Below the pieces are notes generated by a model. The model saw only the letters and a list, made by a program, of their open reading frames with translations. It did no database searches and was not told the origin of the DNA. A stretch of 34,438 nt of DNA from a bacterium (lineage in GTDB: Bacteria; Desulfobacterota; GWC2-55-46). Of the stretch, positions 4,546 to 18,468 are shown piece by piece. Location: NCBI GenBank assembly GCA_004298725.1, contig SCQA01000094.1, positions 1 to 34,438 of the forward strand, in the 5' to 3' direction. Each line of letters opens with the position of its first letter. The stretch's first letter is position 1. Position numbers and translations under genes: made by a program.

Positions 4546-6519
4546 ATGCCAAGAATAGGCGTTTTCGTTTGTCAGTGCGGAAATAACATAGCCGCCACGG
4601 TTGACACAAAAAAAGTCGCCGAGGAGATGAAAAACCTCCCGGGCGTCGTATTTGCCTGCGACTACAAGTTCATGTGCTCGTCACCCGGGCAGGATATGCT
4701 TAAAAACGCCATCAAGGACAACAAACTTGACGGCGTAATCGTATCGGCCTGCTCTCCGCACATGCACGAAAAGACCTTCAGAAAAGCGTGCGAATCAGCG
4801 GGCCTTAACCCTTATCAGTGCGAAATAACCAACATACGCGAGCAATGCTCGTGGGTGCATCACGACAAAACCAAAAAAGCCGGCACGCTTAAAAGCGCCG
4901 ACCTTACGAGAATGACGATAGAGCGGCTTAAAAAAAATAAGCCGCTGGCCAAAATAAAGATACCCGTTAAAAAGAAGGCCATTGTAATAGGCGGCGGCAT
5001 AGCAGGCATACAGGCGGCGCTTGACATAGCCGAAGGCGGGGTTGACGTAATTATCGTCGAAAAAGAGCCGTCAATCGGCGGCAACATGGCGCGGCTTTCC
5101 GAAACCTTCCCAACCATGGACTGCTCGCAGTGCATCCTCACGCCGAAGATGGTCGAGGCCGAGCTTCACGAAAGAATAACGCTTTATACGTATTCTGAAA
5201 TTGAAAAGGTTGACGGCTACATCGGCAACTTCACGGTGCAGATACGGCGTAAATCAAAATACGTTGACGAAGAGCGTTGCACCGGTTGCGGAGAGTGCAT
5301 TGAAAAGTGTCCGTTCAAGGTGGATAGCGCCTTTGAACTTGGCATGACCAAGAGGAAGGTCATTTACACGCCCTTTCCACAGTCCGTGCCGAACGTGCCG
5401 GTAATAGACGCGCCCAACTGCACCAAAATTCAAAAAGACAAATGCGGCGTGTGCGCCATAGTCTGCGGGCCGAAGTGCATCGACTTCAAGATGGAAGATA
5501 AAATAGTCACCGTGGAAGCGGGCGCAATTATAGTGGCAACCGGCTACCAGCTTATGCCCAACGAACGCTTCGGCGAATACGGCTACGGACGGATAAAAGA
5601 CGTTATAAGCGGTATGCAGTTTGAAAGGCTTGCGTCAGCCTCCGGCCCCACTGGCGGAGAAATAAAAAGGCCGTCCGACGGCAAGGTGCCAAGAAGCGTA
5701 GTCTTTATCCAGTGCGCCGGTTCAAGGGACGAGAAAAAAGGCGTATCATACTGCTCAAAGGTATGTTGTATGTACACGGCAAAGCACACCATGCTTTACA
5801 GCCACAAGGTGCACCACGGCCAGTCATATGTTTTCTACATGGACATCCGGGCCGGCGGAAAACGCTACGAAGAATTCGTAAGGCGCGCCATAGAGCACGA
5901 CAACGCGATGTATTTAAGAGGACGCGTGTCGCGCGTATATGAACGCGACGGCAAGGTACTTGTGCAGGGCGCGGACACCCTTTCAGGCAATCAGGTGGAA
6001 ATAGAAGCCGACATGGTCGTACTTGCAACCGCCATAATTTCAAGAGACGGCGCGGACACGCTTGCGCAGAAGCTCAGCATAGGCTACGACAAATACAAGT
6101 TTTACAACGAGTACCACCCCAAGCTTAAACCGGTCGAGACCGTCACCGCGGGCATATTCCTTGCCGGAACATGCATGGGGCCCATGGACATACCGGACTC
6201 GGTTGCTCAGGGTAGCGCCGCGGCAAGCAAGGTGCTTTCTCTTTTTTCAGCGGATGAAATGACAAGAGAACCGATAACGGCCATTGTAAACAAGGTTACC
6301 TGCAACTCGTGCTGGGACTGTTTAACCGCCTGCCCGTATTCTGCCATTGAAAGAGACGCGGTAAAAAACAGGCAGGGCGTAATAACAAAATGGCTTGCGA
6401 AGGTGAACGAAGGCGTGTGCCAGGGGTGCGGCGTGTGCGTTGCCGCTTGCAGAAGCAAGTCAATTGACCTGCGCGGATACACGGATGAGCAGGTTTTTGC
6501 GGCGATAAACGCGTTTTAA
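4546..6519 (+). CDS. hdrA: Heterodisulfide reductase subunit A-like (FAD plus multiple [4Fe-4S])
   Basis: 657 aa. N-terminal IGVFVCQCGNNIA, FAD fold KKAIVIGGGIAGIQAALDIAEGG, and ferredoxin motifs CTGCGECIEKCP, CGVCAIVCGP, CNSCWDCLTACP and CQGCGVCVAAC. Confidence 0.92.
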   Translation: MPRIGVFVCQCGNNIAATVDTKKVAEEMKNLPGVVFACDYKFMCSSPGQDMLKNAIKDNKLDGVIVSACSPHMHEKTFRKACESAGLNPYQCEITNIREQCSWVHHDKTKKAGTLKSADLTRMTIERLKKNKPLAKIKIPVKKKAIVIGGGIAGIQAALDIAEGGVDVIIVEKEPSIGGNMARLSETFPTMDCSQCILTPKMVEAELHERITLYTYSEIEKVDGYIGNFTVQIRRKSKYVDEERCTGCGECIEKCPFKVDSAFELGMTKRKVIYTPFPQSVPNVPVIDAPNCTKIQKDKCGVCAIVCGPKCIDFKMEDKIVTVEAGAIIVATGYQLMPNERFGEYGYGRIKDVISGMQFERLASASGPTGGEIKRPSDGKVPRSVVFIQCAGSRDEKKGVSYCSKVCCMYTAKHTMLYSHKVHHGQSYVFYMDIRAGGKRYEEFVRRAIEHDNAMYLRGRVSRVYERDGKVLVQGADTLSGNQVEIEADMVVLATAIISRDGADTLAQKLSIGYDKYKFYNEYHPKLKPVETVTAGIFLAGTCMGPMDIPDSVAQGSAAASKVLSLFSADEMTREPITAIVNKVTCNSCWDCLTACPYSAIERDAVKNRQGVITKWLAKVNEGVCQGCGVCVAACRSKSIDLRGYTDEQVFAAINAF

Positions 6520-6578: not shown

Positions 6579-7040
6579 ATGACGGAACATACTGAGCAAA
6601 CAGAATCCTGCGGCTTCGAGCCTAAAATAATGGCCTTTGTGTGCAACTGGTGCACCTATGCCGGCGCCGACCTTGCCGGAACGAGCAGGATGGAATACAG
6701 GCCGAACGTGCGGATAATTAAGCTCCCCTGCACCGGCAGGATAGACCCGCTATTTATCATCAAGGCCTTTGAAAACGGCGCGGACGGAGTGCTCGTCTCC
6801 GGTTGCCACCCCGGAGACTGCCACTACACCACCGGCAATTACCACGCAAGGCGCCGCTGGATAGGCTTTAAAAACCTTATGGAGTTTACGGGCATTGACA
6901 TGAGAAGGCTTCATTTTTCATGGGTATCCGCGTCAGAGGCCATCAAGTGGGTTGACCTGATAAACGGCATAACCGATGAAATAAAGAAAATAGGGCCGTT
7001 CATGGAATACAAGGGGCTGAAGGAAAAAGCCAGCCTGTAA
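6579..7040 (+). CDS. flxD: MvhD/FlxD-type delta subunit ([2Fe-2S] electron-transfer protein)
   Basis: 153 aa. MAFVCNWCTYAGADLAG...IKLPCTGRIDP...LVSGCHPGDCHY is the classic MvhD/FlpD signature. It sits directly after hdrA, as in hdrCBA-flxDCBA clusters. Confidence 0.88.
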   Translation: MTEHTEQTESCGFEPKIMAFVCNWCTYAGADLAGTSRMEYRPNVRIIKLPCTGRIDPLFIIKAFENGADGVLVSGCHPGDCHYTTGNYHARRRWIGFKNLMEFTGIDMRRLHFSWVSASEAIKWVDLINGITDEIKKIGPFMEYKGLKEKASL

Positions 7041-7284: not shown

Positions 7285-7715
7285 TGAATACTTCAATCGC
7301 CGAGTGCGTAAAATTCACTAACGAAAACCCGCGTTGCTTCCTGGCCACAGTTGAGGGCGACCAGCCGAGGGTGCGCGGCATGCACCTGATGTTTTCTAAT
7401 GAACAGGGTTTTTATTTTACAACAGGCAACTTTAAAGGCATGTACGGCCAACTTCAGAAAAACCCCAAGACCGAAGTCTGCTTCTTTTCGCCTAAAGAAA
7501 TGCGCTCGATGCGAATTGCGGGCGAAGTCGAGTTCATAACGGACATGAAAGAAAAAGAGGAAATATTCAAAAAGACCCAGTGGCTTAAAAACATCATCGG
7601 CACGCACGACAACGCCATGTGGACGCCTTTCAGAATACAAAGGGGCGTAGCTTACTTCTGGACAATGGCCGCTAACCTTGAAAAGCCAAACTACATCGGT
7701 TTTGATTTTAAATAA
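7284..7715 (+). CDS. Pyridoxamine 5'-phosphate oxidase-like FMN-binding split-barrel protein
   Basis: 143 aa. LATVEGDQPRVRGMHL...FYFTTGNFKGMYGQLQKNPKTEVCFF...MRIAGEVEF is typical of the PNPOx-like family. Translationally coupled to the preceding small ORF. Confidence 0.55.
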   Translation: MNTSIAECVKFTNENPRCFLATVEGDQPRVRGMHLMFSNEQGFYFTTGNFKGMYGQLQKNPKTEVCFFSPKEMRSMRIAGEVEFITDMKEKEEIFKKTQWLKNIIGTHDNAMWTPFRIQRGVAYFWTMAANLEKPNYIGFDFK

Positions 7716-7725
7716 AAAACAGGCA

Positions 7726-8619
7726 ATGGAAAACATTTTAAGAAAAAAAGCAAAAGAGCTTCTTGAAACCGGCGCCGTAAAAGTGGTAATCGGCTACGGC
7801 TGGAACCGCTCAAAAACAAGGACGACTCCGGTGTTCATAACAAAACCGGAAGACGCGGACAGGCTCGTCTTCAATCCGCTCTGCGTCAACAACCTGTCCG
7901 TCTATCTTACGAGGAAGTTTAAAGACATACAAGCCCTCGGCAAGCCCGCGATAATCGCCAAGGGTTGCGACATAAAAAACATCGTGGTGCTTATAACCGA
8001 AGCGCAATTACAGCGCGAGGACGTTTTTATAATCGGCATGGTCTGCGAAGGCACGGTATATAAACAAGAACTATGGAAAGGCGAGCTTTTGCCGCAAATC
8101 ATGCCAACGAAGTGCCACAACTGCGGAGTAAGGAACCCGCACGTGGCGGACGTTATAATCGGCGAAAAGTCAACCTTTGTGCCGCCGGAAAAACCAACCG
8201 GCATGGTCTTTGACAAGATAAAAGACATTGACTCCAAAGACCAGTCAGCGCGATGGGGCTTCTGGATAAATGAATTTTCACGGTGCGTAAAGTGCTACGC
8301 GTGCAGGCAGGTCTGCTCGCTTTGCTACTGCGAGAGGTGCATAGCGGAAAAGAACATGCCGCAGTGGATAGAGACAAGCGCGCACCCGAGAGGCAATCTA
8401 TCGTGGAACCTCACAAGAGCCATGCACCTTGTGGGCAGATGCACGTTTTGCGGCGAGTGCGAAAGGGCGTGCCCTGTAAATATACCGCTGAACCTAATAA
8501 ATCAGAAGATGATACTTGTTGTGAAAGACGCTTTTAATTTTGAGTCCGGCTACGACGAAAAAACGCATCCGCCGATGATAGTCTTCAGCCCGGATGACAA
8601 AGACAACTTCATAAAGTAA
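7726..8619 (+). CDS. flxC: Iron-sulfur protein, FlxC-like (F420-hydrogenase-beta / AsrA-related 4Fe-4S protein)
   Basis: 297 aa from ATG 7726; the ORF-track start at 7678 overlaps the previous gene. Cys clusters CHNCGVRNP, CVKCYACRQVCSLCYCERC and CTFCGECERACP. The position after flxD matches the flxDCBA order. Confidence 0.6.
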   Translation: MENILRKKAKELLETGAVKVVIGYGWNRSKTRTTPVFITKPEDADRLVFNPLCVNNLSVYLTRKFKDIQALGKPAIIAKGCDIKNIVVLITEAQLQREDVFIIGMVCEGTVYKQELWKGELLPQIMPTKCHNCGVRNPHVADVIIGEKSTFVPPEKPTGMVFDKIKDIDSKDQSARWGFWINEFSRCVKCYACRQVCSLCYCERCIAEKNMPQWIETSAHPRGNLSWNLTRAMHLVGRCTFCGECERACPVNIPLNLINQKMILVVKDAFNFESGYDEKTHPPMIVFSPDDKDNFIK

Positions 8620-8631: not shown

Positions 8632-8666
8632 CGGTTATCAATTACCGGTTATCGGTAATTGATACG
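8632..8666. repeat. Heptamer tract forming a perfect 12-bp hairpin
   Basis: CGGTTAT CAATTAC CGGTTAT CGGTAAT TGATACG. Positions 8636-8664 read TATCAATTACCG-GTTAT-CGGTAATTGATA. Located between flxC-like and flxB-like. Confidence 0.65.
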
Positions 8667-8700
8667 CCGCCTTTTACGAAATGGAACAAAGGCGCGAGAG

Positions 8701-9726
8701 ATGGCGAAGACAGTTGAAAAACTTTTAAAAAAAGAAAACCTTGATAAACTCATAACCTCTGTCAAAGCTGACGGAGGCCGCTGGATTGCGCCTGTTACGG
8801 ACGCGCGCCAAGTCGTCTTCAAGGCCGTGACAAAGCATGAAGATATGGCCTCTGACTACATACTCGCAAGAAACTCTTATAAAGAGGTTCTCTTTCCGCA
8901 AACGGAAGTCATTGCCGAATACTCGGTTTCAAGAGAAGGCTCCGAGATGCACGGCGTTGAATTAACCCCGGCTGAGACTGTCGTTTTCGGGGCACGCCCC
9001 TGCGAGGCCGCAAGCCTTAAATCGCTCCGTTCGGTATTTACATGGGACTTTATTGACGAATTCTACACAAAGCGCGAGGAAAAATTAATCATCATAACCG
9101 TTGCCTGCACAAAGGCGGATGAGGCGTGCTTTTGCACCACCGTAAACATCTCGCCGGAATCAACCGAAGGCTCGGATATTTACCTTAAAGAAACCGTCAG
9201 CGGCGATTACCTTGCTCACGGCGCAACTGAAAAAGGCAAAGCATTTATGGCAAAACACGGCAATACCTTTGAAAACGCGCCAAAAGACGCGCAAACAAAA
9301 AAACTCGTCATGCCGGAAGAAATAAATGGCATTGACCTTGATAAAATTTCAGAGCGCCTTAAAAAGACCGGCCATTACGAAGACCATGTCTGGGCGGAGC
9401 TTACGAGAAAGTGCATCGGTTGCGGGGCATGCACATACGTCTGCCCGACGTGCCACTGCTTCGACATAACCGACGAAGGCACGGCCATTGAAGGCGAGCG
9501 CAGAAAGAACTGGGACTCCTGCCAGTTCGACGCCTTTACCCTGCACGCAAGCGGCCACAACCCGCGCGACACGCAGTTTAAAAGGTGGCGTAACAGGTTC
9601 ATGTGCAAAATGCACATTTACCCTGAAAAGTTTAACTCAACAGGTTGCGTCGGTTGCGGCAGATGTGTACGCGTCTGTCCGGTAAGGCTTGACATAACCG
9701 AAGTGATGGAGGCGCTGTCGAAATAA
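8701..9726 (+). CDS. flxB: Iron-sulfur protein, FlxB-like (AsrA / sulfhydrogenase-beta-like)
   Basis: 341 aa from ATG 8701; the TTG at 8659 lies inside a 12-bp hairpin. Motifs CIGCGACTYVCPTCHCFD and CVGCGRCVRVCP, plus ARPCEA and ACFC. Confidence 0.65.
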   Translation: MAKTVEKLLKKENLDKLITSVKADGGRWIAPVTDARQVVFKAVTKHEDMASDYILARNSYKEVLFPQTEVIAEYSVSREGSEMHGVELTPAETVVFGARPCEAASLKSLRSVFTWDFIDEFYTKREEKLIIITVACTKADEACFCTTVNISPESTEGSDIYLKETVSGDYLAHGATEKGKAFMAKHGNTFENAPKDAQTKKLVMPEEINGIDLDKISERLKKTGHYEDHVWAELTRKCIGCGACTYVCPTCHCFDITDEGTAIEGERRKNWDSCQFDAFTLHASGHNPRDTQFKRWRNRFMCKMHIYPEKFNSTGCVGCGRCVRVCPVRLDITEVMEALSK

Positions 9727-9731: not shown

Positions 9732-10565
9732 ATGAATAATATTTATCTGCCTCAGCTTGTTACAATAGAAGATATCTACGACGAAGCACCGGACGTTAAA
9801 AGCTACCGCCTTGTGTTTAAGGACAAAGCCGTGCGCGAGGCTTTCGACTTCAAGGCAGGCCAATTCGGCCTGTACTCGGCCTTCGGCCTCGGAGAGTCGA
9901 CTTTTTGCATAGCGTCGTCGCCGACGCGCAAGGGCTATATTCAATGCACGTTCAGAAGAACAGGCCGCGTAACAGGCGGGCTTGACGAGCTTTCCATAGG
10001 CGGCACAATGGGTTTTCGCGGCCCTTACGGCAACTGGTTCCCATTGGACGAATGGAAGGGCAAGAACATTGTCTTTATCGCCGGAGGCATCGGCCTGCCG
10101 CCGGTACGCTCGGTCATATGGAACTGCCTTGACAGAAGGGAAGACTTCGGGAACATTACAATCGTTTACGGCGCAAAAACAGTTGCCGACCTCGTCTATA
10201 AAAACGAGCTTGAACACTGGGGCGGCAGGCCTGACGTAAAACTCATACAAACCGTTGACCCGGGCGGAGAGACGCCTGAGTGGAAGGGCAAAACAGGCTT
10301 CGTGCCGACGGTGCTTGAAGAGGCCGCGCCAAAAGCTGAAAATTCAATTGCCGTAACCTGCGGCCCTCCTATAATGATAAAATTCGTGCTTGCCACGCTC
10401 AAAAAACTCGGCTGGAACGACGAACAGGTCTACACAACGCTTGAAAACAAGATGAAGTGCGGCGTGGGCAAATGCGGCAGGTGCAACGTGGGCGACGTGT
10501 ATATATGCAAAGAAGGCCCGGTCTACACCGCCGCCGGAGTAAAAAAGATGTATAACGACTTTTAG
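9732..10565 (+). CDS. flxA: FAD/NAD(P)H-binding oxidoreductase with C-terminal [2Fe-2S], FlxA-like (PyrK/AsrB/HydG family)
   Basis: 277 aa. FNR-like fold (KAGQFGL, IAGGIGLPPVRS, TCGPPIM) and a C-terminal cluster CGVGKCGRCNVG...C. Confidence 0.72.
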   Translation: MNNIYLPQLVTIEDIYDEAPDVKSYRLVFKDKAVREAFDFKAGQFGLYSAFGLGESTFCIASSPTRKGYIQCTFRRTGRVTGGLDELSIGGTMGFRGPYGNWFPLDEWKGKNIVFIAGGIGLPPVRSVIWNCLDRREDFGNITIVYGAKTVADLVYKNELEHWGGRPDVKLIQTVDPGGETPEWKGKTGFVPTVLEEAAPKAENSIAVTCGPPIMIKFVLATLKKLGWNDEQVYTTLENKMKCGVGKCGRCNVGDVYICKEGPVYTAAGVKKMYNDF

Positions 10566-10575: not shown

Positions 10576-11364
10576 ATGGCAGACGACAATAAAAAACAGA
10601 AACCGCTTGCGACCGGCGACAGGACAATTCCTCCCGCCGGAGCGAAGATGATTGCCATATACATAATGGGGCGGGAATACATGGTGCCGGAAACCCTCAC
10701 CATAATGAAAGCGATTGAATACGCGGGCTATCAGTACGTGCGCGGGTGCGGGTGCAGGGGCGGCATATGCGGCGCGTGCGGCACCTTCTACCGCTTTACC
10801 GGCGACTACAAATTGCGCTCCGGACTTGCCTGCCAGACGGTAGCCGAACCGGGCATGATAATAATGCAGTTGCCGTTCTTCCCCGCCAACAGGCCGGATT
10901 ACAAACTGGAAAACATGCAGGGAACCCCGCATGAAGAACTTAGAAAGCTCTACCCGGAGGTCTTCAAGTGCGTGGGTTGCGGCACATGCTCAAGAACCTG
11001 CCCCATGGACATAGACGTAATGGATTACATCGCCCTTATGAAACGCGGCGATTTAAAAGGCGCGGCAATAAAGAGCTTTGACTGCGTCATGTGCGGGCTT
11101 TGCGCCTCGCGCTGTCCGGCGCAGATTTCGCAGTTCACGGCGGCCATGTTCGTAAGAAGGGTTTACGGAAAGCATATTCTGCCTAAAGCAGAGCACTTGA
11201 AAAAACGCGTTGAAGAAATAAAAAGCGGCAAGTACGAAAAACTGCTTAAAGAGCTTGAGGGGATGAAGCAGGAAGACGTCAAGAAGCTATACGTGGAACG
11301 CGAGAGAGAACCTGACCTTGCCGAGCCGGGCAAATGGATGCCGAAGGACACGTCTAAGCTGTAA
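10576..11364 (+). CDS. Divergent succinate dehydrogenase/fumarate reductase iron-sulfur subunit-like protein
   Basis: 262 aa. SdhB-type [2Fe-2S] motif CRGGICGAC...LAC, then two complete CxxCxxCxxxCP motifs (CVGCGTCSRTCP, CVMCGLCASRCP), followed by a charged Lys/Glu-rich tail. AGGAG SD. The ATG is 10 nt after the flxA stop. Confidence 0.7.
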   Translation: MADDNKKQKPLATGDRTIPPAGAKMIAIYIMGREYMVPETLTIMKAIEYAGYQYVRGCGCRGGICGACGTFYRFTGDYKLRSGLACQTVAEPGMIIMQLPFFPANRPDYKLENMQGTPHEELRKLYPEVFKCVGCGTCSRTCPMDIDVMDYIALMKRGDLKGAAIKSFDCVMCGLCASRCPAQISQFTAAMFVRRVYGKHILPKAEHLKKRVEEIKSGKYEKLLKELEGMKQEDVKKLYVEREREPDLAEPGKWMPKDTSKL

Positions 11365-11387: not shown

Positions 11388-13037
11388 ATGAGCGGATATA
11401 CGCCGGAACTTAAAGAACTTATAAAAAAGGTGGAAGCCACGAGGCCCGCGAGGGTCGAGAAGGCAAGGCGCGGCGAGCACTTTCCAGCCCTCACCATGGA
11501 CGAGAGGAAGAAGTGGCTTGACAACTACCACCCCGACTTCAAGGAAGAAGGCAGGCGCGCCGTTGCCGTAGGGCCGAATATCGGCACAATAATGCCGGAA
11601 GAAGTAGCCTTCGCGCTTGAATCAACAAGCAGGCTCGACACAAAAAAAATAAACCTTTCAAAAGCCGACTATGAAACGGATTTGCTCGTTATAGGCGCCG
11701 GCGGCGCAGGCACCGCCGCGGCGCTCGCGGCGGCGGATAAAGGCCTTAAAGTAATAATTTCCAATAAGCTCCGCCACGGCGACTCGAATACCGTTATGGC
11801 CGAAGGCGGCATACAGGCCGCCGATCAGGAGAGCGACTCGCCTTACTACCATTATCTTGACGTAATCGGCGGAGGGCATTTTTCCAACAGGCCGGAGCTT
11901 GTAGCCGCGATGGCAAACGACGCGCCGCTTATAATCCACTGGCTTGAAGACCTCGGCATGATGTTCGACAAACACGCCGACGGCAGAATGGTAGTAAGGC
12001 ACGGCGGCGGCACGAGCAGAAAAAGAATGCATTCCGCCGGAGACATGACCGGCGCTGAAATAATGCGCGTTCTAAGGGACGAAGCGAAAAACCGCGCCGA
12101 AAGCATCAAGGTGCTTGAATTCTCCCCTGCCGTTGAGCTTTTACTTGACGAAAAAGGCGCCGCTTGCGGAGCGGTGCTTTATAACCTTGAAACCAAAGAA
12201 TATTACATAGTGCGCTCAAAGGCCGTTGTCATAGCCACGGGCGGCTTTGGCAGGCTCCACATACAGGGCTTTCCCACGACCAACCACTACGGCGCCACCG
12301 CCGACGGTATCGTTATAGCTTACCGCGCCGGAGCCGCGCTTGAAGACATCGAATCAACGCAATACCACCCGACCGGCGCGATATACCCGGAACAGAACGT
12401 CGGGCTTCTCATAACCGAAAAAGTCAGAGGCCTCGGCGCCCAGCTTTTAAATATTGACGGCGAGCAGTTCTGCTTTCCGCTTGAACCGAGGGACGTCGAA
12501 TCCGCCTGCATCATCAGGGAATGCACGGACATCAGCAAAGGCGTCATCACGCCGACCGGGCGCTTTGGCGTATGGCTTGACTCGCCCATGATAGACCTTC
12601 TGCACGGCGAAGGCACAATAAAAAAAGAACTGCCGGCCAAATACATTCAGTTCAAACGCTACCACATTGACATAAGCAAAGAACCTATGCTCCTCTACCC
12701 GACGTTGCACTACCAGAACGGCGGCATAAAAATAGACGCAAACGGCAGATCGGCCATTGACGGCCTTTACGCCGCAGGGGAAGTAACCGGAGGGGTTCAC
12801 GGCAGAAACCGCCTCATGGGCAACTCGCTTCTTGACATACTTGTTTTCGGAAGAAGGGCGGGCTTGAACGCCGCCGAGGCCGCCAAAACAAAGTCAAACA
12901 CCGGCAAACTAAGCCTTGCTCACGTGGATAAATTTTCCGCCGAGCTGAAAAAAGCAGGAGTTAAAAACCCGTCAGTCGGGCCGATACTTCTGCCTGACTA
13001 CGCCCCTGAACACGTAAAGACAAGACAGTGGGGTTAA
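11388..13037 (+). CDS. Divergent fumarate reductase/succinate dehydrogenase-family flavoprotein (non-covalent-FAD type)
   Basis: 549 aa. LLVIGAGGAGTAAA FAD fold at about residue 100. Family motifs are retained: QYHPTG, TEKVRGLGA, PTLHYQNGG and HGRNRLMGNSL. The flavinylation position reads DSNTVMAEGG (Asn where SdhA/FrdA have His). Confidence 0.75.
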   Translation: MSGYTPELKELIKKVEATRPARVEKARRGEHFPALTMDERKKWLDNYHPDFKEEGRRAVAVGPNIGTIMPEEVAFALESTSRLDTKKINLSKADYETDLLVIGAGGAGTAAALAAADKGLKVIISNKLRHGDSNTVMAEGGIQAADQESDSPYYHYLDVIGGGHFSNRPELVAAMANDAPLIIHWLEDLGMMFDKHADGRMVVRHGGGTSRKRMHSAGDMTGAEIMRVLRDEAKNRAESIKVLEFSPAVELLLDEKGAACGAVLYNLETKEYYIVRSKAVVIATGGFGRLHIQGFPTTNHYGATADGIVIAYRAGAALEDIESTQYHPTGAIYPEQNVGLLITEKVRGLGAQLLNIDGEQFCFPLEPRDVESACIIRECTDISKGVITPTGRFGVWLDSPMIDLLHGEGTIKKELPAKYIQFKRYHIDISKEPMLLYPTLHYQNGGIKIDANGRSAIDGLYAAGEVTGGVHGRNRLMGNSLLDILVFGRRAGLNAAEAAKTKSNTGKLSLAHVDKFSAELKKAGVKNPSVGPILLPDYAPEHVKTRQWG

Positions 13038-13138: not shown

Positions 13139-14314
13139 ATGAACATACACGAGTATCAGGCAAAGAGCATTCTTGCCAAATTCGGCGTACCGGTGCCGAA
13201 GAGCAAAATAGCGTTTACGCCGGACGAAGCCGAAGAAAACTCAAAGGAGTTTTTAAGCGGCGAAGGAAGCGTCTGCGTTGTAAAGGCGCAGATACACGCC
13301 GGTGGCAGAGGCAAGGCAGGCGGCGTAAAACTCGCCAAATCAAGGCAGCAGGTGCGCGAGATTGCCTCGGAACTTCTCGGTAAAATCCTCGTAACTCACC
13401 AGACAGGCCCCGTCGGAAAAGAAGTCAAGAAAATACTCATCGAAGAAGGCTGTGCCATAGAAAAAGAGTTCTACATGAGCCTCGTGGTGGACAGGTCAAG
13501 CCACAAGGTGGCGCTGATGGCGTCGCGCGAAGGCGGCGTGGAAATAGAAGAAGTAGCGGCGCGCTCTCCTGAAAAAATATTAAAAGAATTCATAGACCCT
13601 GCTACCGGACTTATTCCCTTTCAAGGGCGCAAAATCGCCTTTGCCCTCGGCCTTGACAAATCGGTAATAAACAAAGCCGTATCATTCATGACTAAACTTT
13701 ACGACGCGTTTGTCGCCTCGGACTGCGCCATGCTTGAAATAAACCCTCTTGTGCTTACTAAGTCCGGCGACCTAATCGCGCTTGACGCCAAGCTCTCGTT
13801 TGACGACAACGCCCTTTTCCGCCACAAGGACATTGAAGGCATGAGAGACCTTGACGAGGAAGACCCGAAAGAAATTGAAGCTTCGCGCTACAGCCTGAAT
13901 TATGTTTCGCTTGACGGCTCCATCGGGTGCATGGTCAACGGCGCCGGCCTTGCCATGGCGACAATGGACATAATACAGCTCTGCGGCGGAAGCCCGGCTA
14001 ACTTTCTTGACGTAGGCGGCGGCGCAACCAAAGAGCAGGTAACGGCGGCGTTCAAGATACTCGTCTCAGACCCAAGGGTTAAAACAATTCTTGTCAATAT
14101 CTTCGGCGGAATAATGCGTTGCGACATCATAGCCGAGGGCATCATAGCCGCGGCAAAAGAAGTCGGCCTGAAGGTGCCGCTGGTGGTTAGGCTTCAGGGC
14201 ACTAACGTTGACAAGGGCAGAGAGCTTCTTGCCACAAGCGGGCTTAACATCATAACCGCCGAAAAGATGGACGAAGCCGCCCAAAAAGCCGTCAACGCGG
14301 CTAAAAAGGCATAG
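13139..14314 (+). CDS. sucC: Succinyl-CoA synthetase (ADP-forming) beta subunit
   Basis: 391 aa. [20 protein letters not shown], an ATP-grasp region, and [15 protein letters not shown]. Confidence 0.95.
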
Positions 14315-14327
14315 GGGGCTACATACC

Positions 14328-15203
14328 ATGAGCATACTCGTAAATAAAAACACCAGAGTTATCTGTCAGGGCATAACCGGCGAGCAGGGCACGTTCCACT
14401 CAAAACAAATGGTAGCCTACGGCACGAAGATGGTCGGCGGAGTAACGCCGGGCAAGGGCGGCTCGGATGTTGACGGCATACCGGTATTTAACACCGTTGA
14501 CGAGGCAATAAGAAAAACCGGAGCGAACGCTTCCGTAATATACGTGCCGCCGCCGTTCGCGGCTGACGCCATAATGGAAGCGGTTGACGCCGGCATTGCC
14601 CTTGTAATCTGCATAACAGAGGGAATACCGGTTATAGACATGGTCAAGGTAAGAAGGTTCATGGACGGCAAACCGTCAAGGCTTGTCGGCCCGAACTGCC
14701 CGGGCGTCATCACGCCGGATGAATGTAAAATAGGCATAATGCCCGGCCATATACACAAGAAAGGCAACGTGGGCGTGGTATCCAGAAGCGGCACCCTCAC
14801 CTACGAGGCGGTTGACCAGCTTACAAGGCTCGGCCTTGGGCAATCAACCTGCGTCGGCATAGGCGGAGACCCGGTAAACGGCACAAACTTCATTGACGTG
14901 CTTGAACTCTTTCAAAAAGACCCGGATACAAACGCCATTGTAATGATAGGAGAAATAGGCGGAAGCGCCGAGGAAGACGCCGCAGAGTTCATAAAGAAGA
15001 ACGTAACAAAACCGGTTGTCGGACATATAGCCGGCGTTGCCGCGCCAAAGGGCAAAAGAATGGGCCACGCCGGCGCGATAATATCCGGCGGCAAAGGCAC
15101 GGCTGAAGAAAAGATGGAGGCTATGTCCGCCGCTGGCATTAAGGTAACGAAAAGCACCGCTGACATCGGCAAAACAATGCTCCAAGCGCTTGCCAAAAAA
15201 TAA
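14328..15203 (+). CDS. sucD: Succinyl-CoA synthetase alpha subunit
   Basis: 291 aa. [23 protein letters not shown], and the phospho-His region [15 protein letters not shown]. Confidence 0.95.
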
Positions 15204-15249: not shown

Positions 15250-15494
15250 TCTATCAAGTTGCGCGGGTTACTCTCTGGTCAGTTCGCCAAAGGCGAACAA
15301 TACAAAAGGCGAAGTCCTTACCAGTTGACAAAGTCAACAAAAGTTCACGACCCATCCTGTTCGGATGGGTGCCCCGAAGGCGCCCTGAAGTAAGGCACGA
15401 GACATATTTTTCTCTACGCGAAAGTGACGAGGACAACACAGCAGTTGGGACTTTTTCAACAACCTATAAGCCAATGACGAATACGGAGGGTTAC
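15250..15494 (+). promoter_or_regulatory. Hairpin-rich 5' leader of korD (candidate riboswitch or attenuator; no known family recognised)
   Basis: Hairpins: GTTCGCC-AAA-GGCGAAC (15282-15298), GTTGAC-AAA-GTCAAC (15324-15338), CCCATCC-TGTTC-GGATGGG (15351-15369), the mutually exclusive GGGTGCC-CCGAA-GGCGCCC (15367-15385), and C-GAAA-G (15419-15424). A possible closing helix is CCTTAC (15316-21) / GTAAGG (15390-95). Confidence 0.4.
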
Positions 15495-15698
15495 ATGGGA
15501 GAAGCCGCTTTAAAACTGCCAAACATTCGGATAAACGAAAAACTCTGCAAGGGTTGCAGTATATGCGTTGACTTTTGCCCGACCAACGTCCTTGAAATCA
15601 AAGGCACAGTAGTCGCGGTTAAAGACCTTGCCGCTTGCACGCGGTGCCAGCTTTGCGACCTCCGGTGCCCGGACTTTGCAATATCGGTTATAGATTAA
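15495..15698 (+). CDS. korD: 2-oxoglutarate:ferredoxin oxidoreductase delta subunit (2x[4Fe-4S] ferredoxin)
   Basis: 67 aa from ATG 15495, with GGAGGG 4 nt upstream. CKGCSICVDFCP and CTRCQLCDLRCP. The ORF-track start at 15369 runs through the structured leader and is rejected. Confidence 0.8.
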   Translation: MGEAALKLPNIRINEKLCKGCSICVDFCPTNVLEIKGTVVAVKDLAACTRCQLCDLRCPDFAISVID

Positions 15699-15789
15699 CG
15701 GTTATCAGTTGCCGGTTATCCGTGAACGGATGTAGTTTATACGTTTTACGACTGCACACTAACCGCCGATACCATTTTAAACTACACCA
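15685..15789. repeat. Degenerate tandem heptamer tract starting inside the 3' end of korD
   Basis: CGGTTAT AGATTAA CGGTTAT CAGTTGC CGGTTAT CCGTGAA CGGATGT AGTTTAT ACGTTTT ACGACTG CACACTA ACCGCCG ATACCAT TTTAAAC TACACCA. It fills most of the 134-nt korD-korA spacer. Confidence 0.6.
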
Positions 15790-15832
15790 CAGATTGACTT
15801 AAGAGCGGTCTGTTAGGGGAGGTTTTAAAAAC

Positions 15833-16969
15833 ATGGCTGAACATAAAAAAAAGCTTCTTCAGGGCAATGAAGCCTGCGTTGAAGGGGCTATATACGCCGG
15901 TTGCAAATTTTACGCCGGGTACCCGATAACGCCTTCAACTGAAATCGCCGAAGGCCTATCGGTCAGGCTTCCGAAGATAGGCGGCAAGTTCATTCAGATG
16001 GAAGACGAAATAGCCTCAATCGCCGCGGCCATAGGCGGCTCTCTTGCGGGGCTAAAATCTCTGACTGCCACATCCGGCCCGGGCTTTTCTTTAAAACAGG
16101 AAGGCCTCGGTTACGCTTGCATAGCCGAAATACCGCTTGTAATAATAAACGTCATGCGCGGCGGCCCTTCAACAGGCTACCCGACAGGCCCTTCTCAAGC
16201 GGACATAATGCAAGCCAAATGGGGCACTCACGGCGACCACCCCGCCATAGCGCTGACACCGGCTTACGTGCAGGAAATTCTCACTGAAACCGTCCGCGCG
16301 TTTAACCTCTCTGAAAAATACAGAACGCCGGTCATAGTGCTTTACGATGAAATAATAGGCCATATGAGAGAGCCTATAACAATACCCGAACCAGGCGAAC
16401 TTGAAGTAATTGACAGGGAAAAAGTAACTTGCCCGCCTGACGAATACTTCCCGTATGACGAGCGCTTTGAAGTGCCGCCGCTTGCGCCGTTCGGCACCGG
16501 CTACCGCTATCACGTAACCGGCCTTAATCACAAAAAAGACGGCTTCCCGACGAACGATTCAAAGCAAATTAACGAAAACAACCTCCGCATAATGAGAAAG
16601 ATTGAAAACCATAAAGCGGAAATCTGGAAAAACGAAGAAGTCTCCCTGAAAGATGCCGACGTGGCTGTATTTTCGATCGGCTCCACGGCAAGATCGGCCA
16701 ACTTCGCCGTCAAAGCGGCGCGCGAAGCAGGCATAAAAGCAGGGCTTTTAAGGCCGCTTACAATCTGGCCATTCCCTGACGCGGCGGTAAAGGAGCTTGC
16801 CAAGAGAGTAAAGGCGATAATAGTACCTGAGCTTAACCTTGGCCAGATGGTGCTTGAGGTGGAGCGCTGTGCCGGAGGAGCCTGCAAGGTTGAAGGCATA
16901 CATAGGGTTGACGGCGAGCCGATAACCCCGGCGCAGATACTTGAAATAATAAAGAAGCATGCGAAGTAA
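15833..16969 (+). CDS. korA: 2-oxoglutarate:ferredoxin oxidoreductase alpha subunit
   Basis: 378 aa. LLQGNEACVEGAIYAGCKFYAGYPITPSTEI is typical of KorA/PorA. The D-A-B-G gene order and the adjacency to sucCD favour 2-oxoglutarate over pyruvate as substrate. Confidence 0.86.
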   Translation: MAEHKKKLLQGNEACVEGAIYAGCKFYAGYPITPSTEIAEGLSVRLPKIGGKFIQMEDEIASIAAAIGGSLAGLKSLTATSGPGFSLKQEGLGYACIAEIPLVIINVMRGGPSTGYPTGPSQADIMQAKWGTHGDHPAIALTPAYVQEILTETVRAFNLSEKYRTPVIVLYDEIIGHMREPITIPEPGELEVIDREKVTCPPDEYFPYDERFEVPPLAPFGTGYRYHVTGLNHKKDGFPTNDSKQINENNLRIMRKIENHKAEIWKNEEVSLKDADVAVFSIGSTARSANFAVKAAREAGIKAGLLRPLTIWPFPDAAVKELAKRVKAIIVPELNLGQMVLEVERCAGGACKVEGIHRVDGEPITPAQILEIIKKHAK

Positions 16970-16996
16970 AACAACAGCTATCACGGAGGCTTGGAA

Positions 16997-17857
16997 ATGT
17001 CAGAAGGCACCGTTGCCAAAAAACAAAAGCTTAGCGTACCGTTTGACTACGACAAATACCTAAGGCCCAAAAAACTTCCGCACATCTGGTGCCCGGGTTG
17101 CGGCCACGGCATTGTCCTTAAAGCGCTTCTTCGCGCAATAGAGGCAAGCGGACTGAATAAAGACGACATCTGCATGGTCTCCGGCATTGGTTGCTCAAGC
17201 AGAACACCCGGCTACGTTGACTTCAACACCATGCACTCGCTCCACGGCAGGGCATTCGCCTTCGCGACAGGAATTAAATTCGCTAAGCCGAATATGAAGG
17301 TCATCGTCATAACCGGCGACGGAGACGCACTTGCCATCGGCGGCAACCACTTCATACACACGTGCAGAAGGAATATTGACCTGACGGTTCTCGTTTACAC
17401 AAACGCGATATACGGCATGACCGGCGGCCAATACTCGCCGACCACGCCGCTTGGCGACATAGCCACTACAAGCCGCTACGGAAACATCGAGCCGCCCTTC
17501 GACGCCTGCAAAATGGCCGAGGCCGCCGGAGCGTCGTTTGTGGCGCGCGGCACCGCCTACCACACGCTTGAGCTTGAAAAGACCATACTTGAAGCAATAA
17601 AGCACAAGGGAACTTCGGTTGTTGACATCATTGACGCATGCCCGACTTATTACGGCAGAATGAACAAATACAAGAGCGCGACTCACATGATGGAAGTAAT
17701 TGAAAAAGACGGCACGGTGTCAGTAAAACAGGCCGACAAACTGCCCCCTGAAAAACTTGAAGGCAAGCTCCTGCGCGGCGTTCTATACAAAACAGACAGA
17801 CCGGAATACTGCGAGCAATACGCCACACAGGTAATGGGAAAGGCAACCGGCAAATAA
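16997..17857 (+). CDS. korB: 2-oxoglutarate:ferredoxin oxidoreductase beta subunit (TPP-binding)
   Basis: 286 aa from ATG 16997, with GGAGG 7 nt upstream. WCPGCGHG cluster motif and TGDGDALAIGGNH TPP motif. Confidence 0.9.
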   Translation: MSEGTVAKKQKLSVPFDYDKYLRPKKLPHIWCPGCGHGIVLKALLRAIEASGLNKDDICMVSGIGCSSRTPGYVDFNTMHSLHGRAFAFATGIKFAKPNMKVIVITGDGDALAIGGNHFIHTCRRNIDLTVLVYTNAIYGMTGGQYSPTTPLGDIATTSRYGNIEPPFDACKMAEAAGASFVARGTAYHTLELEKTILEAIKHKGTSVVDIIDACPTYYGRMNKYKSATHMMEVIEKDGTVSVKQADKLPPEKLEGKLLRGVLYKTDRPEYCEQYATQVMGKATGK

Positions 17858-17922
17858 ACCGGTTTTAGCTCTAAGATTTTAGACAATATTTAAGCTATTT
17901 AAACGGAGGGCAAGTAAAAACA

Positions 17923-18468
17923 ATGAGCGCACGGTACGAATTAAGGTTTAGCGGCTCCGGCGGACAAGGCATGATACTTGCCGGTATAATCATGGCAGAG
18001 GCCGCGGCCATTTACGGCGACAAAAATGCCGTGCAGAGCCAGTCATACGGCCCGGAATCAAGGGGCGGCGCAAGCAAGGCCGAGGTTATCATAAGCACCC
18101 AGCCTATTGACTATCCCAAAGCAACGGCAATTGACTGTATGCTCGCCATGACGCAAGAAGCATGTTCAAAATACCACTACGACATAAAGCCCGGCGGCAT
18201 TCTCCTTATTGACAGCAACGAAGTCAAAGACGTGCCAAAAGGGCATTTTAAGACCATAAGCTTTCCGATAATCGAGACGGCGCGTAAAGAACTCGGCAAA
18301 ACAATCGTAGCGAACATAATTTCCCTTGGCATGATTGCCGAGCTTACGGGCATTGTGCCTCACGAGGCGGTTGAAAAGGCCGTACTCGCAAGGGTGCCTG
18401 CCGCGTTTGTCGAGCTGAATAAAAAAGCCGTTCAAATAGGCTTTCAAAGCGCAAAGGGACTCAAGTAA
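17923..18468 (+). CDS. korG: 2-oxoglutarate:ferredoxin oxidoreductase gamma subunit
   Basis: 181 aa. FSGSGGQGMILAGIIMAEAA and SYGPESRGG are typical of gamma subunits. Confidence 0.88.
   Translation: MSARYELRFSGSGGQGMILAGIIMAEAAAIYGDKNAVQSQSYGPESRGGASKAEVIISTQPIDYPKATAIDCMLAMTQEACSKYHYDIKPGGILLIDSNEVKDVPKGHFKTISFPIIETARKELGKTIVANIISLGMIAELTGIVPHEAVEKAVLARVPAAFVELNKKAVQIGFQSAKGLK

What the first reader, a model, noticed from the sequence alone, without database searches (positions are those of the whole stretch)
11388..13037. Two SdhA/FrdA paralogues differ at the FAD-attachment histidine: the Hdr-linked copy has Asn
By eye alignment to the family motif R-S-H-[ST]-x-A-A-[EQ]-G-G, the canonical copy (18774-20498) reads VRSHSVAAQGG. 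The Hdr-linked copy reads GDSNTVMAEGG, with Asn in place of the His that carries covalent 8-alpha-FAD. The Hdr-linked copy keeps the dicarboxylate-binding and catalytic positions (QYHPTG, TEKVRG, LHYQNGG, GRNRLMGNS). Established knowledge: loss of the covalent link lowers the flavin potential and abolishes succinate oxidation while leaving fumarate reduction, as seen in E. coli FrdA His44 variants and in soluble fumarate reductases and L-aspartate oxidase. The copy also has an N-terminal extension of about 95 residues before the GxGxxG fold that I cannot assign. Inference: it is a dedicated one-way fumarate reductase, and the covalent-His copy is the quinone-linked, reversible enzyme.
Basis: partly seen in the sequence, partly recalled or inferred. 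Interest (0 to 1): 0.6.

Follow-up and report, generated by a model that had tools for sequence, protein, structure and literature searches.

The report
Soluble Hdr-linked fumarate reductase flavoprotein
This gene encodes the catalytic subunit of a cytoplasmic fumarate reductase that has no histidine to bind its flavin covalently and sits beside an Hdr/Flx electron-transfer module instead of a quinone anchor; the missing histidine is real, but it is normal for this whole soluble enzyme branch.

Summary
In every alignment, Asn134 of the 549-aa protein (11388-13037) occupies the column of the FAD-linking histidine of E. coli FrdA/SdhA and of the window's own SdhA (His59). All dicarboxylate and catalytic residues are kept. 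The roughly 95-residue N-terminal extension is real and conserved.

The protein lacks the C-terminal domain of SdhA/FrdA. It is not a recent paralogue of the SdhA copy. It belongs to a separate, uncurated clade in which Asn is fixed (198/198). That clade groups with the non-covalent flavocytochrome-c family and NadB, not with complex II.

Its Fe-S partner (10576-11364) is fused to it in one natural protein. ESMFold2 predicts that this partner docks on HdrB/HdrC (ipSAE 0.73, best control 0.19).

The conserved core is hdrC-hdrB-frdB-frdA. This lineage adds hdrA-flxDCBA, and marine Gammaproteobacteria instead add a NuoF-like NADH module.

Best reading: a one-way, quinone-independent, NADH-driven fumarate reductase of a reductive TCA branch, possibly electron-bifurcating. 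A similar gene-cluster idea was published in 2019 and remains untested. This scan's earlier notes shown to me concern this same window only.

The parts
11388..13037 (+). FrdA-like flavoprotein (P0001, 549 aa): an N-terminal arm, then the FAD and capping domains; no C-terminal SdhA domain
   Evidence: Pfam FAD_binding_2 covers residues 98-481 and nothing else. It scores below every NCBIfam cut-off. AlphaFold2 gives pLDDT 94.2 and pTM 0.92. Best structural match is Shewanella flavocytochrome c fumarate reductase, Z 43.5, rmsd 2.1 over 391 residues.
11388..11672 (+). N-terminal extension, residues 1-95 (helices 6-27, 37-47 and 71-77; short strands 56-58 and 68-70; conserved HP(D/N) and GxNxG motifs)
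   Evidence: Conserved across the family, including distant members. Folded alone it gives pTM 0.35, so it is not an autonomous domain. No Pfam match. No structural match above Z 3.2.
11787..11789 (+). Asn134 codon, in the column of the 8-alpha-N3-histidyl-FAD histidine
   Evidence: Asn in 198 of 198 family sequences.
11775..11777 (+). His130 codon (RHGD), aligned with FrdA Pro41
   Evidence: Invariant within the subfamily at 66% identity or more. Leu or Ile in distant members with the extension.
10576..11364 (+). FrdB-like Fe-S subunit (P0273): a [2Fe-2S] motif, two full CxxCxxCxxxCP motifs and a conserved charged C-terminal tail
   Evidence: Naturally fused in front of the flavoprotein in P0124. 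Predicted to dock on HdrB/HdrC.
2965..3372 (+). HdrC-like protein with two [4Fe-4S] motifs; its conserved C-terminal tail is predicted to touch FrdB
3602..4486 (+). HdrB-like protein with two complete CCG motifs; the real start is probably the ATG at 3617
4546..6519 (+). HdrA-like FAD and Fe-S protein
6579..7040 (+). MvhD/FlxD-like protein
   Evidence: Pfam FlpD, E 8e-52.
7678..8619 (+). FlxC-like Fe-S protein
8659..9726 (+). FlxB-like (HydB/AsrA-like) Fe-S protein
9732..10565 (+). FlxA-like NAD(P)H- and FAD-binding protein with a [2Fe-2S] domain
   Evidence: NAD_binding_1 plus DHODB_Fe-S_bind.
18774..20498 (+). Canonical SdhA/FrdA with His59 and the C-terminal domain; the start codon is uncertain
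   Evidence: TIGR01812 scores 769.6 against a cut-off of 567.3. Pfam finds both domains. Start region read.
20543..22403 (+). SdhB and an HdrB-like SdhE, the partners of the canonical copy
13139..15203 (+). sucC and sucD, directly downstream
15369..18468 (+). Ferredoxin-like korD plus korA, korB and korG (four-subunit 2-oxoacid:ferredoxin oxidoreductase)
548..2965 (+). mdh and a two-subunit class I fumarase, directly upstream of hdrC

Best explanation
P0001 is the catalytic flavoprotein of a cytoplasmic, quinone-independent fumarate reductase.

SHOWN from sequence: it has the full fumarate/succinate active site but Asn134 where complex II carries the FAD-linking histidine. It lacks the C-terminal SdhA domain and carries a conserved N-terminal arm.

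INFERRED: FAD is bound non-covalently. As in other non-covalent relatives, this gives a low-potential flavin that reduces fumarate but cannot oxidise succinate.

SUPPORTED by gene fusion, synteny and a complex model: the flavoprotein pairs with the FrdB-like subunit encoded 23 nt upstream ([2Fe-2S] plus two [4Fe-4S]). That subunit docks through its first [4Fe-4S] region on the first CCG cluster of HdrB and on the tail of HdrC. HdrCB-FrdBA is therefore a split, Tfr-like core.

INFERRED for this organism: the inserted hdrA-flxDCBA genes add an NADH input. Electrons would run from NADH through FlxA, FlxB/C and FlxD to the HdrA flavin, then through HdrC/HdrB and FrdB to the FrdA FAD and fumarate. 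A second electron may be bifurcated to ferredoxin for the neighbouring 2-oxoglutarate:ferredoxin oxidoreductase in a reductive TCA branch. The His-bearing SdhABE copy would be the membrane or quinone-facing, reversible enzyme.
For: - Asn134 lies in the His column in all alignments and is Asn in 198/198 family sequences.
- H327, T343, E344, R347, R368, H441 and R475 are invariant.
- There is no Succ_DH_flav_C domain.
- With an AprA outgroup, the clade groups with the TIGR01813 flavocytochrome-c family (SH-aLRT 95), whose members also carry Asn. This pair lies next to NadB, away from the His-bearing SdhA/FrdA.
- The best structural matches are soluble, non-covalent fumarate reductases, Z 43.
- Non-covalent relatives only reduce fumarate (PMC9557727).
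- P0124 is a natural FrdB-FrdA fusion.
- The core hdrC-hdrB-frdB-frdA is found in 23 loci of sulfate-reducer families. The arrangement hdrCBA-flxDCBA-frdBA is found in the close clade and in Nitrospirae MAGs.
- Marine Gammaproteobacteria show frdB-frdA-nuoF-like, a second, independent link to an NADH module.
- The complex model of HdrC+HdrB+FrdB scores ipSAE 0.73 against a best control of 0.19. That mark was reached by 58 of 80 solved complexes and 2 of 110 mismatched pairs. The runs agree in at least 95% of contacts and the partner's pLDDT is at least 77.
- Gene order follows the reductive branch: mdh, fumAB, this block, sucCD, kor.
- The genome has ACL-like or citryl-CoA-synthetase-like genes. 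No DsrC, DsrA or AprA was found.
- Rubin-Blum et al. 2019 proposed a similar coupling for tubeworm symbionts.
Against: - No biochemistry exists for any member. Flavin attachment, direction, electron donor and bifurcation are all inferred.
- His130 is invariant in the close subfamily.
- HdrB keeps both complete CCG motifs, which would also fit a thiol/disulfide substrate.
- Many carriers have only hdrCB-frdBA, without HdrA or Flx, so NADH or bifurcation cannot be the general mechanism of the family.
- The complex model used my own alignments and three chains, unlike the tool's calibration. The HdrB-HdrC part resembles solved Hdr complexes.
- Both trees are quick searches. The flavocytochrome-c branch is long (1.35), so its sister position could be long-branch attraction.
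- Adjacency of the flx/hdrA genes does not prove one physical complex.
Confidence: 0.65

Rival explanations
1. Thiol:fumarate reductase only. HdrB oxidises a thiol carrier (DsrC or a small dithiol) and passes the electrons through FrdB to FrdA, as methanogen TfrAB does with CoM-SH and CoB-SH. Flx-HdrA would be a separate enzyme that merely regenerates the thiol.
For: The conserved core in 23 loci is hdrC-hdrB-frdB-frdA, without HdrA or Flx. HdrB keeps both CCG motifs intact. The TfrB profile is an SdhB-like part followed by an HdrB-like part. A bona fide TfrA (P0192, 765 bits against a cut-off of 718) also lacks the His. Rubin-Blum et al. discuss this option.
Against: In this genome no DsrC was found, and CoM/CoB are not expected in bacteria (my own knowledge). 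The model places the FrdB cluster directly against the HdrB CCG1 cluster, so a simple electron wire needs no thiol. The NuoF-linked version has no Hdr at all.
Confidence: 0.2
2. The enzyme runs oxidatively. It would be a succinate dehydrogenase whose electrons are confurcated with reduced ferredoxin onto NAD+, for an oxidative TCA cycle.
For: The cluster also holds enzymes that are reversible in principle, and the genome has a citrate synthase. Succinate oxidation is the hard step in related syntrophs (PMC5947623).
Against: There is no flavinylation His, and non-covalent relatives cannot oxidise succinate. By my calculation, succinate (+30 mV) plus ferredoxin (about -450 mV) to NAD+ (-320 mV) is endergonic by roughly 35-40 kJ/mol. 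A His-bearing SdhABE lies in the same cluster in the close-clade loci long enough to include it.
Confidence: 0.05
3. It acts on another substrate: L-aspartate (NadB-like) or another unsaturated acid, as urocanate or cinnamate reductases do.
For: NCBIfam NadB models score nearly as high as the Frd models (290 against 293-341 bits). Asn, Ser or Ala at the His column is also the NadB pattern. The short relatives of about 400 aa in the same clade have no known function.
Against: A separate NadB-clade gene exists in the genome. By my recollection of the NadB structural literature, NadB Glu121 binds the amino group; its column holds His205 here, read by eye from the alignment. NadB has no Fe-S partner. 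All four carboxylate-binding residues of complex II are kept. The gene sits between fumarase and succinyl-CoA synthetase.
Confidence: 0.05
4. FAD is still covalently bound, through His130 or another residue.
For: His130 is invariant in 198/198 close family members, four residues before Asn134.
Against: His130 aligns with FrdA Pro41, with no gap anywhere between K127 and G141. It is Leu or Ile in distant members that keep Asn134. In the model, Asn134 starts the short helix 134-137. By my recollection, the FrdA histidine sits at the same kind of helix start.
Confidence: 0.03

Closest known systems
Thiol:fumarate reductase TfrAB of Methanothermobacter (NCBIfam NF004900 and NF004898)
   Same: Soluble. 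The flavoprotein has no flavinylation His (P0192 reads GKGGCTPMAEGG). An SdhB-like Fe-S module is joined to an HdrB-type CCG module. TfrA is the best NCBIfam hit of P0001.
   Different: P0001 scores 341 bits against a cut-off of 718 and matches only profile positions 5-410 of 546. TfrA keeps the C-terminal domain and has no N-terminal arm. Here the FrdB, HdrB and HdrC parts are separate genes. TfrA-like proteins fall in another part of the tree.
Shewanella flavocytochrome c3 and other soluble fumarate reductases (TIGR01813 family, Osm1)
   Same: Two-domain architecture without the C-terminal domain. Best structural match: Z 43.5, rmsd 2.1, 38% identity over 391 residues. Family members carry Asn in the His column. 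Sister position in the rooted tree, SH-aLRT 95.
   Different: P0001 scores below the family cut-off (224.5 against 285.45). It is cytoplasmic and has neither a haem domain nor a Tat signal. It has an Fe-S partner subunit. It has an N-terminal arm where Fcc3 has its cytochrome domain.
Complex II flavoproteins (E. coli FrdA and SdhA; the window's own SdhA)
   Same: Same fold and the same catalytic residues. Partnered with an SdhB-like subunit.
   Different: No His, no C-terminal domain, 33-34% identity, and 293 bits against a cut-off of 567. The partner has two [4Fe-4S] motifs instead of [4Fe-4S] plus [3Fe-4S]. There is no membrane anchor.
tfrAB with flxABCD-hdrABC and korABCD in the rTCA clusters of Ca. 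Endoriftia and Thioflavicoccus (Rubin-Blum et al. 2019, PMC6315080)
   Same: The same gene set in one same-strand cluster, and the same proposed electron-bifurcating role.
   Different: That work concerns Gammaproteobacteria. I could not fetch those sequences, so it is untested whether their tfrA belongs to this clade with the N-terminal arm. The paper does not discuss flavin attachment (a search of its supplements for 'covalent' found nothing).
Five-subunit NADH-dependent fumarate reductase of Hydrogenobacter thermophilus (Miura et al. 2008, as cited in PMC13147460)
   Same: Soluble, NADH-driven, and serving the rTCA cycle.
   Different: Its genes are reported as scattered (my recollection of the abstract), whereas these lie in one operon-like block.
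L-aspartate oxidase NadB
   Same: Non-covalent FAD with Ser, Asn or Ala in the His column, and the same catalytic residues.
   Different: NadB is a separate, well-supported clade (SH-aLRT 100). It keeps a C-terminal helical domain and has no Fe-S partner. The genome has its own NadB.

Membership tests
SdhA/FrdA complex II flavoprotein (TIGR01812, Pfam PF00890 plus PF02910) | N-terminal FAD_binding_2 domain with a capping domain | tested here: met
   PF00890, E 4e-81, residues 98-481.
SdhA/FrdA complex II flavoprotein (TIGR01812, Pfam PF00890 plus PF02910) | C-terminal Succ_DH_flav_C domain | tested here: not met
   No PF02910 hit. The protein ends about 70 residues after the FAD domain.
SdhA/FrdA complex II flavoprotein (TIGR01812, Pfam PF00890 plus PF02910) | Histidine for the 8-alpha-N3-histidyl-FAD link | tested here: not met
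   Asn134 occupies that column.
SdhA/FrdA complex II flavoprotein (TIGR01812, Pfam PF00890 plus PF02910) | Curated family score | tested here: not met
   292.9 bits against a cut-off of 567.3.
SdhA/FrdA complex II flavoprotein (TIGR01812, Pfam PF00890 plus PF02910) | Dicarboxylate-binding and proton-transfer residues (FrdA H232, T244, E245, R248, R287, H355, R390) | tested here: met
   H327, T343, E344, R347, R368, H441 and R475 are aligned and invariant. The FrdA residue numbers are from my own knowledge.
Thiol:fumarate reductase TfrA (NF004900) | Curated equivalog score over the full length | tested here: not met
   340.9 bits against 718; profile positions 5-410 of 546 only.
Thiol:fumarate reductase TfrA (NF004900) | Fe-S/CCG partner (TfrB) that links the flavoprotein to an HdrB-type site | tested here: inconclusive
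   The functionally equivalent parts are present as separate frdB, hdrB and hdrC genes. Docking is predicted, not shown.
Flavocytochrome c / soluble fumarate reductase family (TIGR01813) | Curated subfamily score | tested here: not met
   224.5 bits against 285.45.
Flavocytochrome c / soluble fumarate reductase family (TIGR01813) | FAD plus clamp domains only, with no flavinylation His | tested here: met
   (family members read GGN in the same column).
Flavocytochrome c / soluble fumarate reductase family (TIGR01813) | Periplasmic location, or a haem domain or partner | tested here: not met
   No signal or Tat motif and no haem motif is visible in the translation, read by eye with no signal-peptide predictor. 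The partner is a cytoplasmic Fe-S protein.
L-aspartate oxidase NadB (TIGR00551) | Curated equivalog score and placement in the NadB clade | tested here: not met
   290.1 bits against 452.75. It lies outside the NadB clade, which has SH-aLRT 100.
FlxABCD-HdrABC NADH dehydrogenase/heterodisulfide reductase (neighbouring genes) | HdrA, HdrB (two CCG motifs), HdrC (two [4Fe-4S]), an MvhD-like FlxD, two Fe-S proteins, and an NAD(P)H/FAD FlxA, all on one strand | tested here: met
   Domain-level matches only. No curated Flx model was available.
FlxABCD-HdrABC NADH dehydrogenase/heterodisulfide reductase (neighbouring genes) | DsrC as the disulfide substrate | tested here: not met
   No PF04358 match in the 2.1-Mb genome, which is rated 100% complete.
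Five-subunit NADH-fumarate reductase of Hydrogenobacter | Sequence similarity to its FrdA-E subunits | not testable with these tools
   The sequences could not be fetched. The enzyme is known here only from PMC13147460.

The most novel reading that the evidence does not exclude
FrdBA-HdrBC-HdrA-FlxABCD is one physical complex and a new class of flavin-based electron-bifurcating enzyme. Fumarate would be the high-potential acceptor: 2 NADH + fumarate + oxidised ferredoxin give 2 NAD+ + succinate + reduced ferredoxin. This would feed 2-oxoglutarate synthase directly. The N-terminal arm of FrdA and the conserved tail of FrdB would then be the adaptors that let one catalytic module plug into HdrBC, Hdr-Flx or NuoF-type donors.
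Probability: 0.35. Interest if true: 0.8.

Novelty: new variant of a known kind. Interest (0 to 1): 0.45.

Why it matters
Fumarate reduction is the least settled step of the reductive TCA cycle in organisms that lack a suitable quinol. A 2026 genome survey (PMC13147460) states that many autotrophs carry unexplained 'AB-only' fumarate reductases.

This report defines one such family by testable features:
- Asn in place of the flavinylation histidine;
- no C-terminal domain;
- an N-terminal arm;
- an Fe-S partner with [2Fe-2S] and two [4Fe-4S] motifs.

The family is common. It was found in 86 of 301 sampled genomes of the phylum, and also in Nitrospirae, in marine Gammaproteobacteria and in a Prochlorococcus genome. 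It occurs beside three different donor modules. It is present in cultured strains (Desulfoferrobacter suflitae, Desulforhabdus sp. TSK), where it can be purified.

If the Hdr/Flx-linked form bifurcates electrons, one enzyme would supply both succinate and the reduced ferredoxin needed for CO2 fixation. That would change the energy budget assumed for rTCA autotrophy.

Taken alone, the Asn-for-His observation is what a specialist would expect of a soluble fumarate reductase.

Tried and rejected
- **Geometry of Asn134 and His130 relative to the flavin C8 methyl.** Model coordinates are not given to the script box, so only alignment and secondary-structure arguments were possible.
- **N-terminal arm alone.** No Pfam family. 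AlphaFold2 gave pTM 0.35. An exhaustive structural search gave a best Z of 3.2, which is noise. Its docking surface remains unknown.
- **Expression.** No RNA holder is listed for the stretch. The DNA holders are groundwater metagenomes.
- **Literature.** One search on TfrA and covalent flavin returned only unrelated papers.
- **Published comparators.** The sequences of the Endoriftia and Thioflavicoccus tfrA genes, the Hydrogenobacter Frd subunits and Shewanella Fcc3 itself could not be fetched. TIGR01813 members from related genomes stood in for Fcc3. Those stand-ins lack the H327 equivalent and may use other substrates.
- **PNPOx-like gene as a conserved accessory.** Rejected. The window's type occurs in only 2 of 80 loci. 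The one next to frdA in Desulfoferrobacter is only 26% identical.
- **Promoter and terminator scan.** Uninformative: 31 terminator-like sites against 32 expected by chance.
- **NadB identity, and flavinylation at His130.** Both considered and rejected (see the rival explanations).
Full report
**Observation.** The second copy, 18774-20498 (P0002), reads VRSHSVAAQGG. The start of P0001 is well supported. AGGAG lies 6 nt before the ATG. More than a hundred homologues at 74-81% identity cover residues 1-549. So do most of the 80 genomic loci fetched.

**Which residue sits at the flavinylation site.** HMMER alignments to solved structures pair DSNTVMAEGG with KAHTVMAEGG of M. smegmatis Sdh1 and with RSHTVAAEGG of E. 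coli FrdA. NadB has Ser there. I fetched E. coli frdA, sdhA and nadB and aligned them with P0001. There is no gap between K127 and G141. Asn134 (codon 11787-11789) pairs with FrdA His (His44 in the mature numbering). His130 pairs with FrdA Pro41.
- In 198 family sequences Asn134 is invariant.
- His130 is also invariant in that close subfamily. In more distant members that keep the N-terminal arm and Asn134 it is Leu or Ile.
- The residues that bind and protonate fumarate in complex II are all invariant: H327, T343, E344, R347, R368, H441 and R475. The equivalent FrdA numbers (H232, T244, E245, R248, R287, H355, R390) are from my own knowledge.

Pfam finds only FAD_binding_2 (residues 98-481) and no Succ_DH_flav_C domain. 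P0002 has both. P0001 is below the curated cut-off of every NCBIfam model. The best is TfrA, at 341 bits against 718, matching profile positions 5-410 of 546. P0002 passes the SdhA/FrdA subfamily model at 770 against 567. P0001 is therefore a truncated flavoprotein carrying an N-terminal arm.

**Phylogeny.** I used the top representatives from an exhaustive search of 1.84 billion proteins. To these I added the E. coli references and the genome's three FAD_binding_2 proteins. The tree uses the core columns only.
- The first quick maximum-likelihood tree gives three supported groups. One is a 24-row clade that holds P0001 (SH-aLRT 99). All its members lack the C-terminal domain, and they carry Asn (21) or Lys (3) in the His column. 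The second is the SdhA/FrdA group together with TfrA-like proteins (96). The third is the NadB group (100), which holds the genome's third paralogue (domains).
- I then added four proteins that pass the flavocytochrome-c family cut-off, and four AprA as outgroup.
- In that tree the P0001 clade joins the flavocytochrome-c family (95). This pair lies next to NadB (92), away from the His-bearing complex II proteins.
- The flavocytochrome-c members also read GGN in the same column.
- A protein that passes the TfrA cut-off (P0192) reads GKGGCT, so it too lacks the His.
- The two copies in the window are therefore members of deeply separated branches, not paralogues differing at one site. Asn is the normal state of the soluble branch.
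- Caveat: both trees are quick searches, and the flavocytochrome-c branch is long.

**Structure.** AlphaFold2 with a 67-row alignment gives pLDDT 94.2 and pTM 0.92, and the arm is confidently placed. Foldseek ranks E. coli FrdA first, TM 0.71. Re-alignment by VIA-align ranks the soluble Shewanella flavocytochrome c fumarate reductases first, at Z 43.5 and rmsd 2.1 over 391 residues spanning model residues 75-501. FrdA follows at Z 39-40 with rmsd 3.6-3.9. Residues 1-74 have no counterpart. Folded alone, the arm keeps its helices but has pTM 0.35, and it matches nothing above Z 3.2. It is an arm packed on the body, not a domain. Its partner surface is unknown.

**The partners.** The gene 23 nt upstream (10576-11364) encodes an SdhB-like protein. 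It has a [2Fe-2S] motif, two complete CxxCxxCxxxCP motifs and a conserved tail. One natural 727-aa protein, P0124, is this Fe-S module fused in front of the arm and the flavoprotein. Mapping the window's genes onto 80 loci shows two arrangements.
- hdrC-hdrB-hdrA-flxD-flxC-flxB-flxA-frdB-frdA occurs in the close uncultured clade and in Nitrospirae MAGs. In the close clade it usually continues with sucCD, fdx, korABG and sdhABE.
- hdrC-hdrB-frdB-frdA alone occurs in 23 loci of Syntrophobacteraceae, Desulfobacteraceae, Desulfobulbaceae/Desulfocapsaceae, Desulfarculaceae and Desulfatiglandales. These include the cultured Desulfoferrobacter suflitae and Desulforhabdus sp. TSK.

A third arrangement appears in marine Gammaproteobacteria MAGs: frdB-frdA followed, with overlapping stop and start codons, by a NuoF-like NADH/FMN subunit. 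A Prochlorococcus genome has the bare pair. The complex model of HdrC, HdrB and FrdB, with FrdB as the scored partner, gave ipSAE 0.73 against a best control of 0.19. That mark was reached by 58 of 80 solved complexes and 2 of 110 mismatched pairs. The runs agree in at least 95% of contacts and the partner's pLDDT is at least 77. The interface puts FrdB residues 116-159, around the first [4Fe-4S] motif, against the HdrB CCG1 cysteines (13-14, 43-48) and the conserved HdrC tail (110-134). This supports binding but does not show it. My own alignments and three chains differ from the tool's calibration, and the HdrB-HdrC part resembles solved Hdr complexes.

**Organism and pathway.**
- The window is one same-strand run: mdh, fumAB, hdrCBA, flxD(CBA), frdBA, sucCD, korDABG, sdhABE.
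- The genome is 2.1 Mb in 313 contigs, rated 100% complete, and comes from groundwater.
- It has an ATP-grasp/Citrate_bind gene followed by a CoA-ligase-type gene, which looks like ACL or citryl-CoA synthetase. It also has one citrate synthase.
- No DsrC was found, nothing passed the DsrA cut-off, and no AprA was found. It is therefore not a sulfate reducer, and the usual Flx-Hdr substrate is missing.
- Orthologues at E 1e-120 or better occur in 86 of 301 sampled genomes of the phylum (62 of 201 genera), with up to three copies per genome.

**Literature.** Covalent attachment raises the FAD potential to about -50 to -90 mV. Engineered non-covalent variants drop by 90-150 mV. Soluble fumarate reductases and L-aspartate oxidase, which bind FAD non-covalently, only reduce fumarate (PMC9557727). 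Rubin-Blum et al. 2019 found tfrAB, flxABCD-hdrABC and korABCD interspersed in the rTCA clusters of tubeworm symbionts and Thioflavicoccus. They proposed an electron-bifurcating complex (PMC6315080 and its supplementary note 3). A 2026 survey repeats this and stresses that many 'AB-only' fumarate reductases are unexplained (PMC13147460). I found no biochemical test, and no discussion of flavin attachment for these proteins.

**Mechanism.**
- Shown: the active-site residues, the absence of the histidine, the domain loss, the fusion and the synteny.
- Inferred: non-covalent, low-potential FAD, and hence one-way fumarate reduction.
- Inferred: electrons enter FrdA through FrdB from HdrB/HdrC.
- Inferred: in this organism NADH feeds the chain through FlxABCD and HdrA.
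- On energetics, NADH to fumarate yields about -58 kJ/mol (PMC13147460). Pushing a second electron pair from NADH (-320 mV) to ferredoxin costs about +25 kJ; the ferredoxin potential of about -450 mV is my assumption. Bifurcation is therefore feasible, at roughly -35 to -40 kJ net. The reverse reaction, succinate oxidation to NAD+, is not feasible.
- The His-bearing SdhABE can serve the quinone-linked, reversible role.

**Rivals.** A pure thiol:fumarate reductase is the main one. It is favoured by the four-gene core in sulfate reducers and by the intact CCG motifs. It is weakened here by the missing DsrC and by the NuoF-linked form. An oxidative role, another substrate, and covalent attachment through His130 are each unlikely for the reasons given above.

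**Verdict.** The missing histidine is the expected state of a soluble lineage. The value of the finding lies in defining a widespread, uncurated and modular fumarate-reductase flavoprotein family that cultured strains now make testable. The Hdr/Flx-linked form is a candidate bifurcating enzyme that was already hypothesised in print.

Noticed in passing
L098 and L099, 9366-12891: In marine Gammaproteobacteria MAGs the frdB-like (212 aa) and frdA-like (545 aa, with the arm and Asn) genes are followed, with overlapping stop and start codons, by a NuoF-like protein (Complex1_51K, SLBB, NADH_4Fe-4S). This looks like a three-subunit NADH:fumarate reductase with no Hdr.
   Followed up: partly
L100, 5250-7433 (P0124): A natural 727-aa fusion of the Fe-S subunit, the N-terminal arm and the flavoprotein, with no hdr, flx or nuoF genes on its 7.7-kb contig.
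   Followed up: partly
L101, 8001-10357: A family member (542 aa, with the arm and Asn) followed by an frdB-like gene in Prochlorococcus sp. MIT 1201. This is an unexpected host for an anaerobe-type fumarate reductase.
   Followed up: no
window 10576-11364 (residues 185-262): The charged C-terminal tail of the FrdB-like subunit is conserved to the last residues (Y239, R244, E245, P246, G252, W254, P256, L262 are invariant in 40 sequences). It is not part of the predicted HdrBC interface, so it may hold the FrdA arm or another partner.
   Followed up: partly
window 18774-18845: The SdhA start is uncertain. A strong AAGGAGG (18817-18823) is followed in frame only by CTG (18828). The nearby ATG (18838) is out of frame. 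The listed TTG start (18774) would add about 18 residues before the Rossmann strand.
   Followed up: partly
window 7072-7715: A weak HicB-like 70-aa ORF and a PNPOx-like 143-aa ORF sit between flxD and flxC. The PNPOx type is present in only 2 of 80 related loci. A distant PNPOx-like gene (26% identity) lies two genes after frdA in Desulfoferrobacter (L057, 12435-12920).
   Followed up: partly
window 22533-22808: A 91-aa ORF with a transposase helix-turn-helix domain (HTH_Tnp_1) lies directly after sdhE and marks the end of the TCA block. A pstSCAB-phoU phosphate transport cluster follows on the minus strand (23639-28163).
   Followed up: no
G000 contig C3 (L094, 1-2709): An ATP-grasp/Citrate_bind gene (423 aa) is followed by a CoA_binding/Succ_CoA_lig gene that is cut by the end of the fetched locus. 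This looks like ATP-citrate lyase or citryl-CoA synthetase, so the genome may run a reductive TCA cycle. A separate 384-aa citrate synthase lies on C163.
   Followed up: partly
P0147, P0152, P0159, P0160, P0181, P0189, P0197, P0234: A sister group of short proteins (about 400-415 aa) has neither the arm nor the C-terminal domain. They carry Asn or Lys in the His column and have no known function.
   Followed up: no
L057, 5317-6930: In Desulfoferrobacter suflitae a sigma-54 activator with a GAF sensor domain lies upstream of hdrC-hdrB-frdB-frdA, separated from hdrC by one small 132-aa ORF. This hints that the four-gene form is inducible.
   Followed up: no
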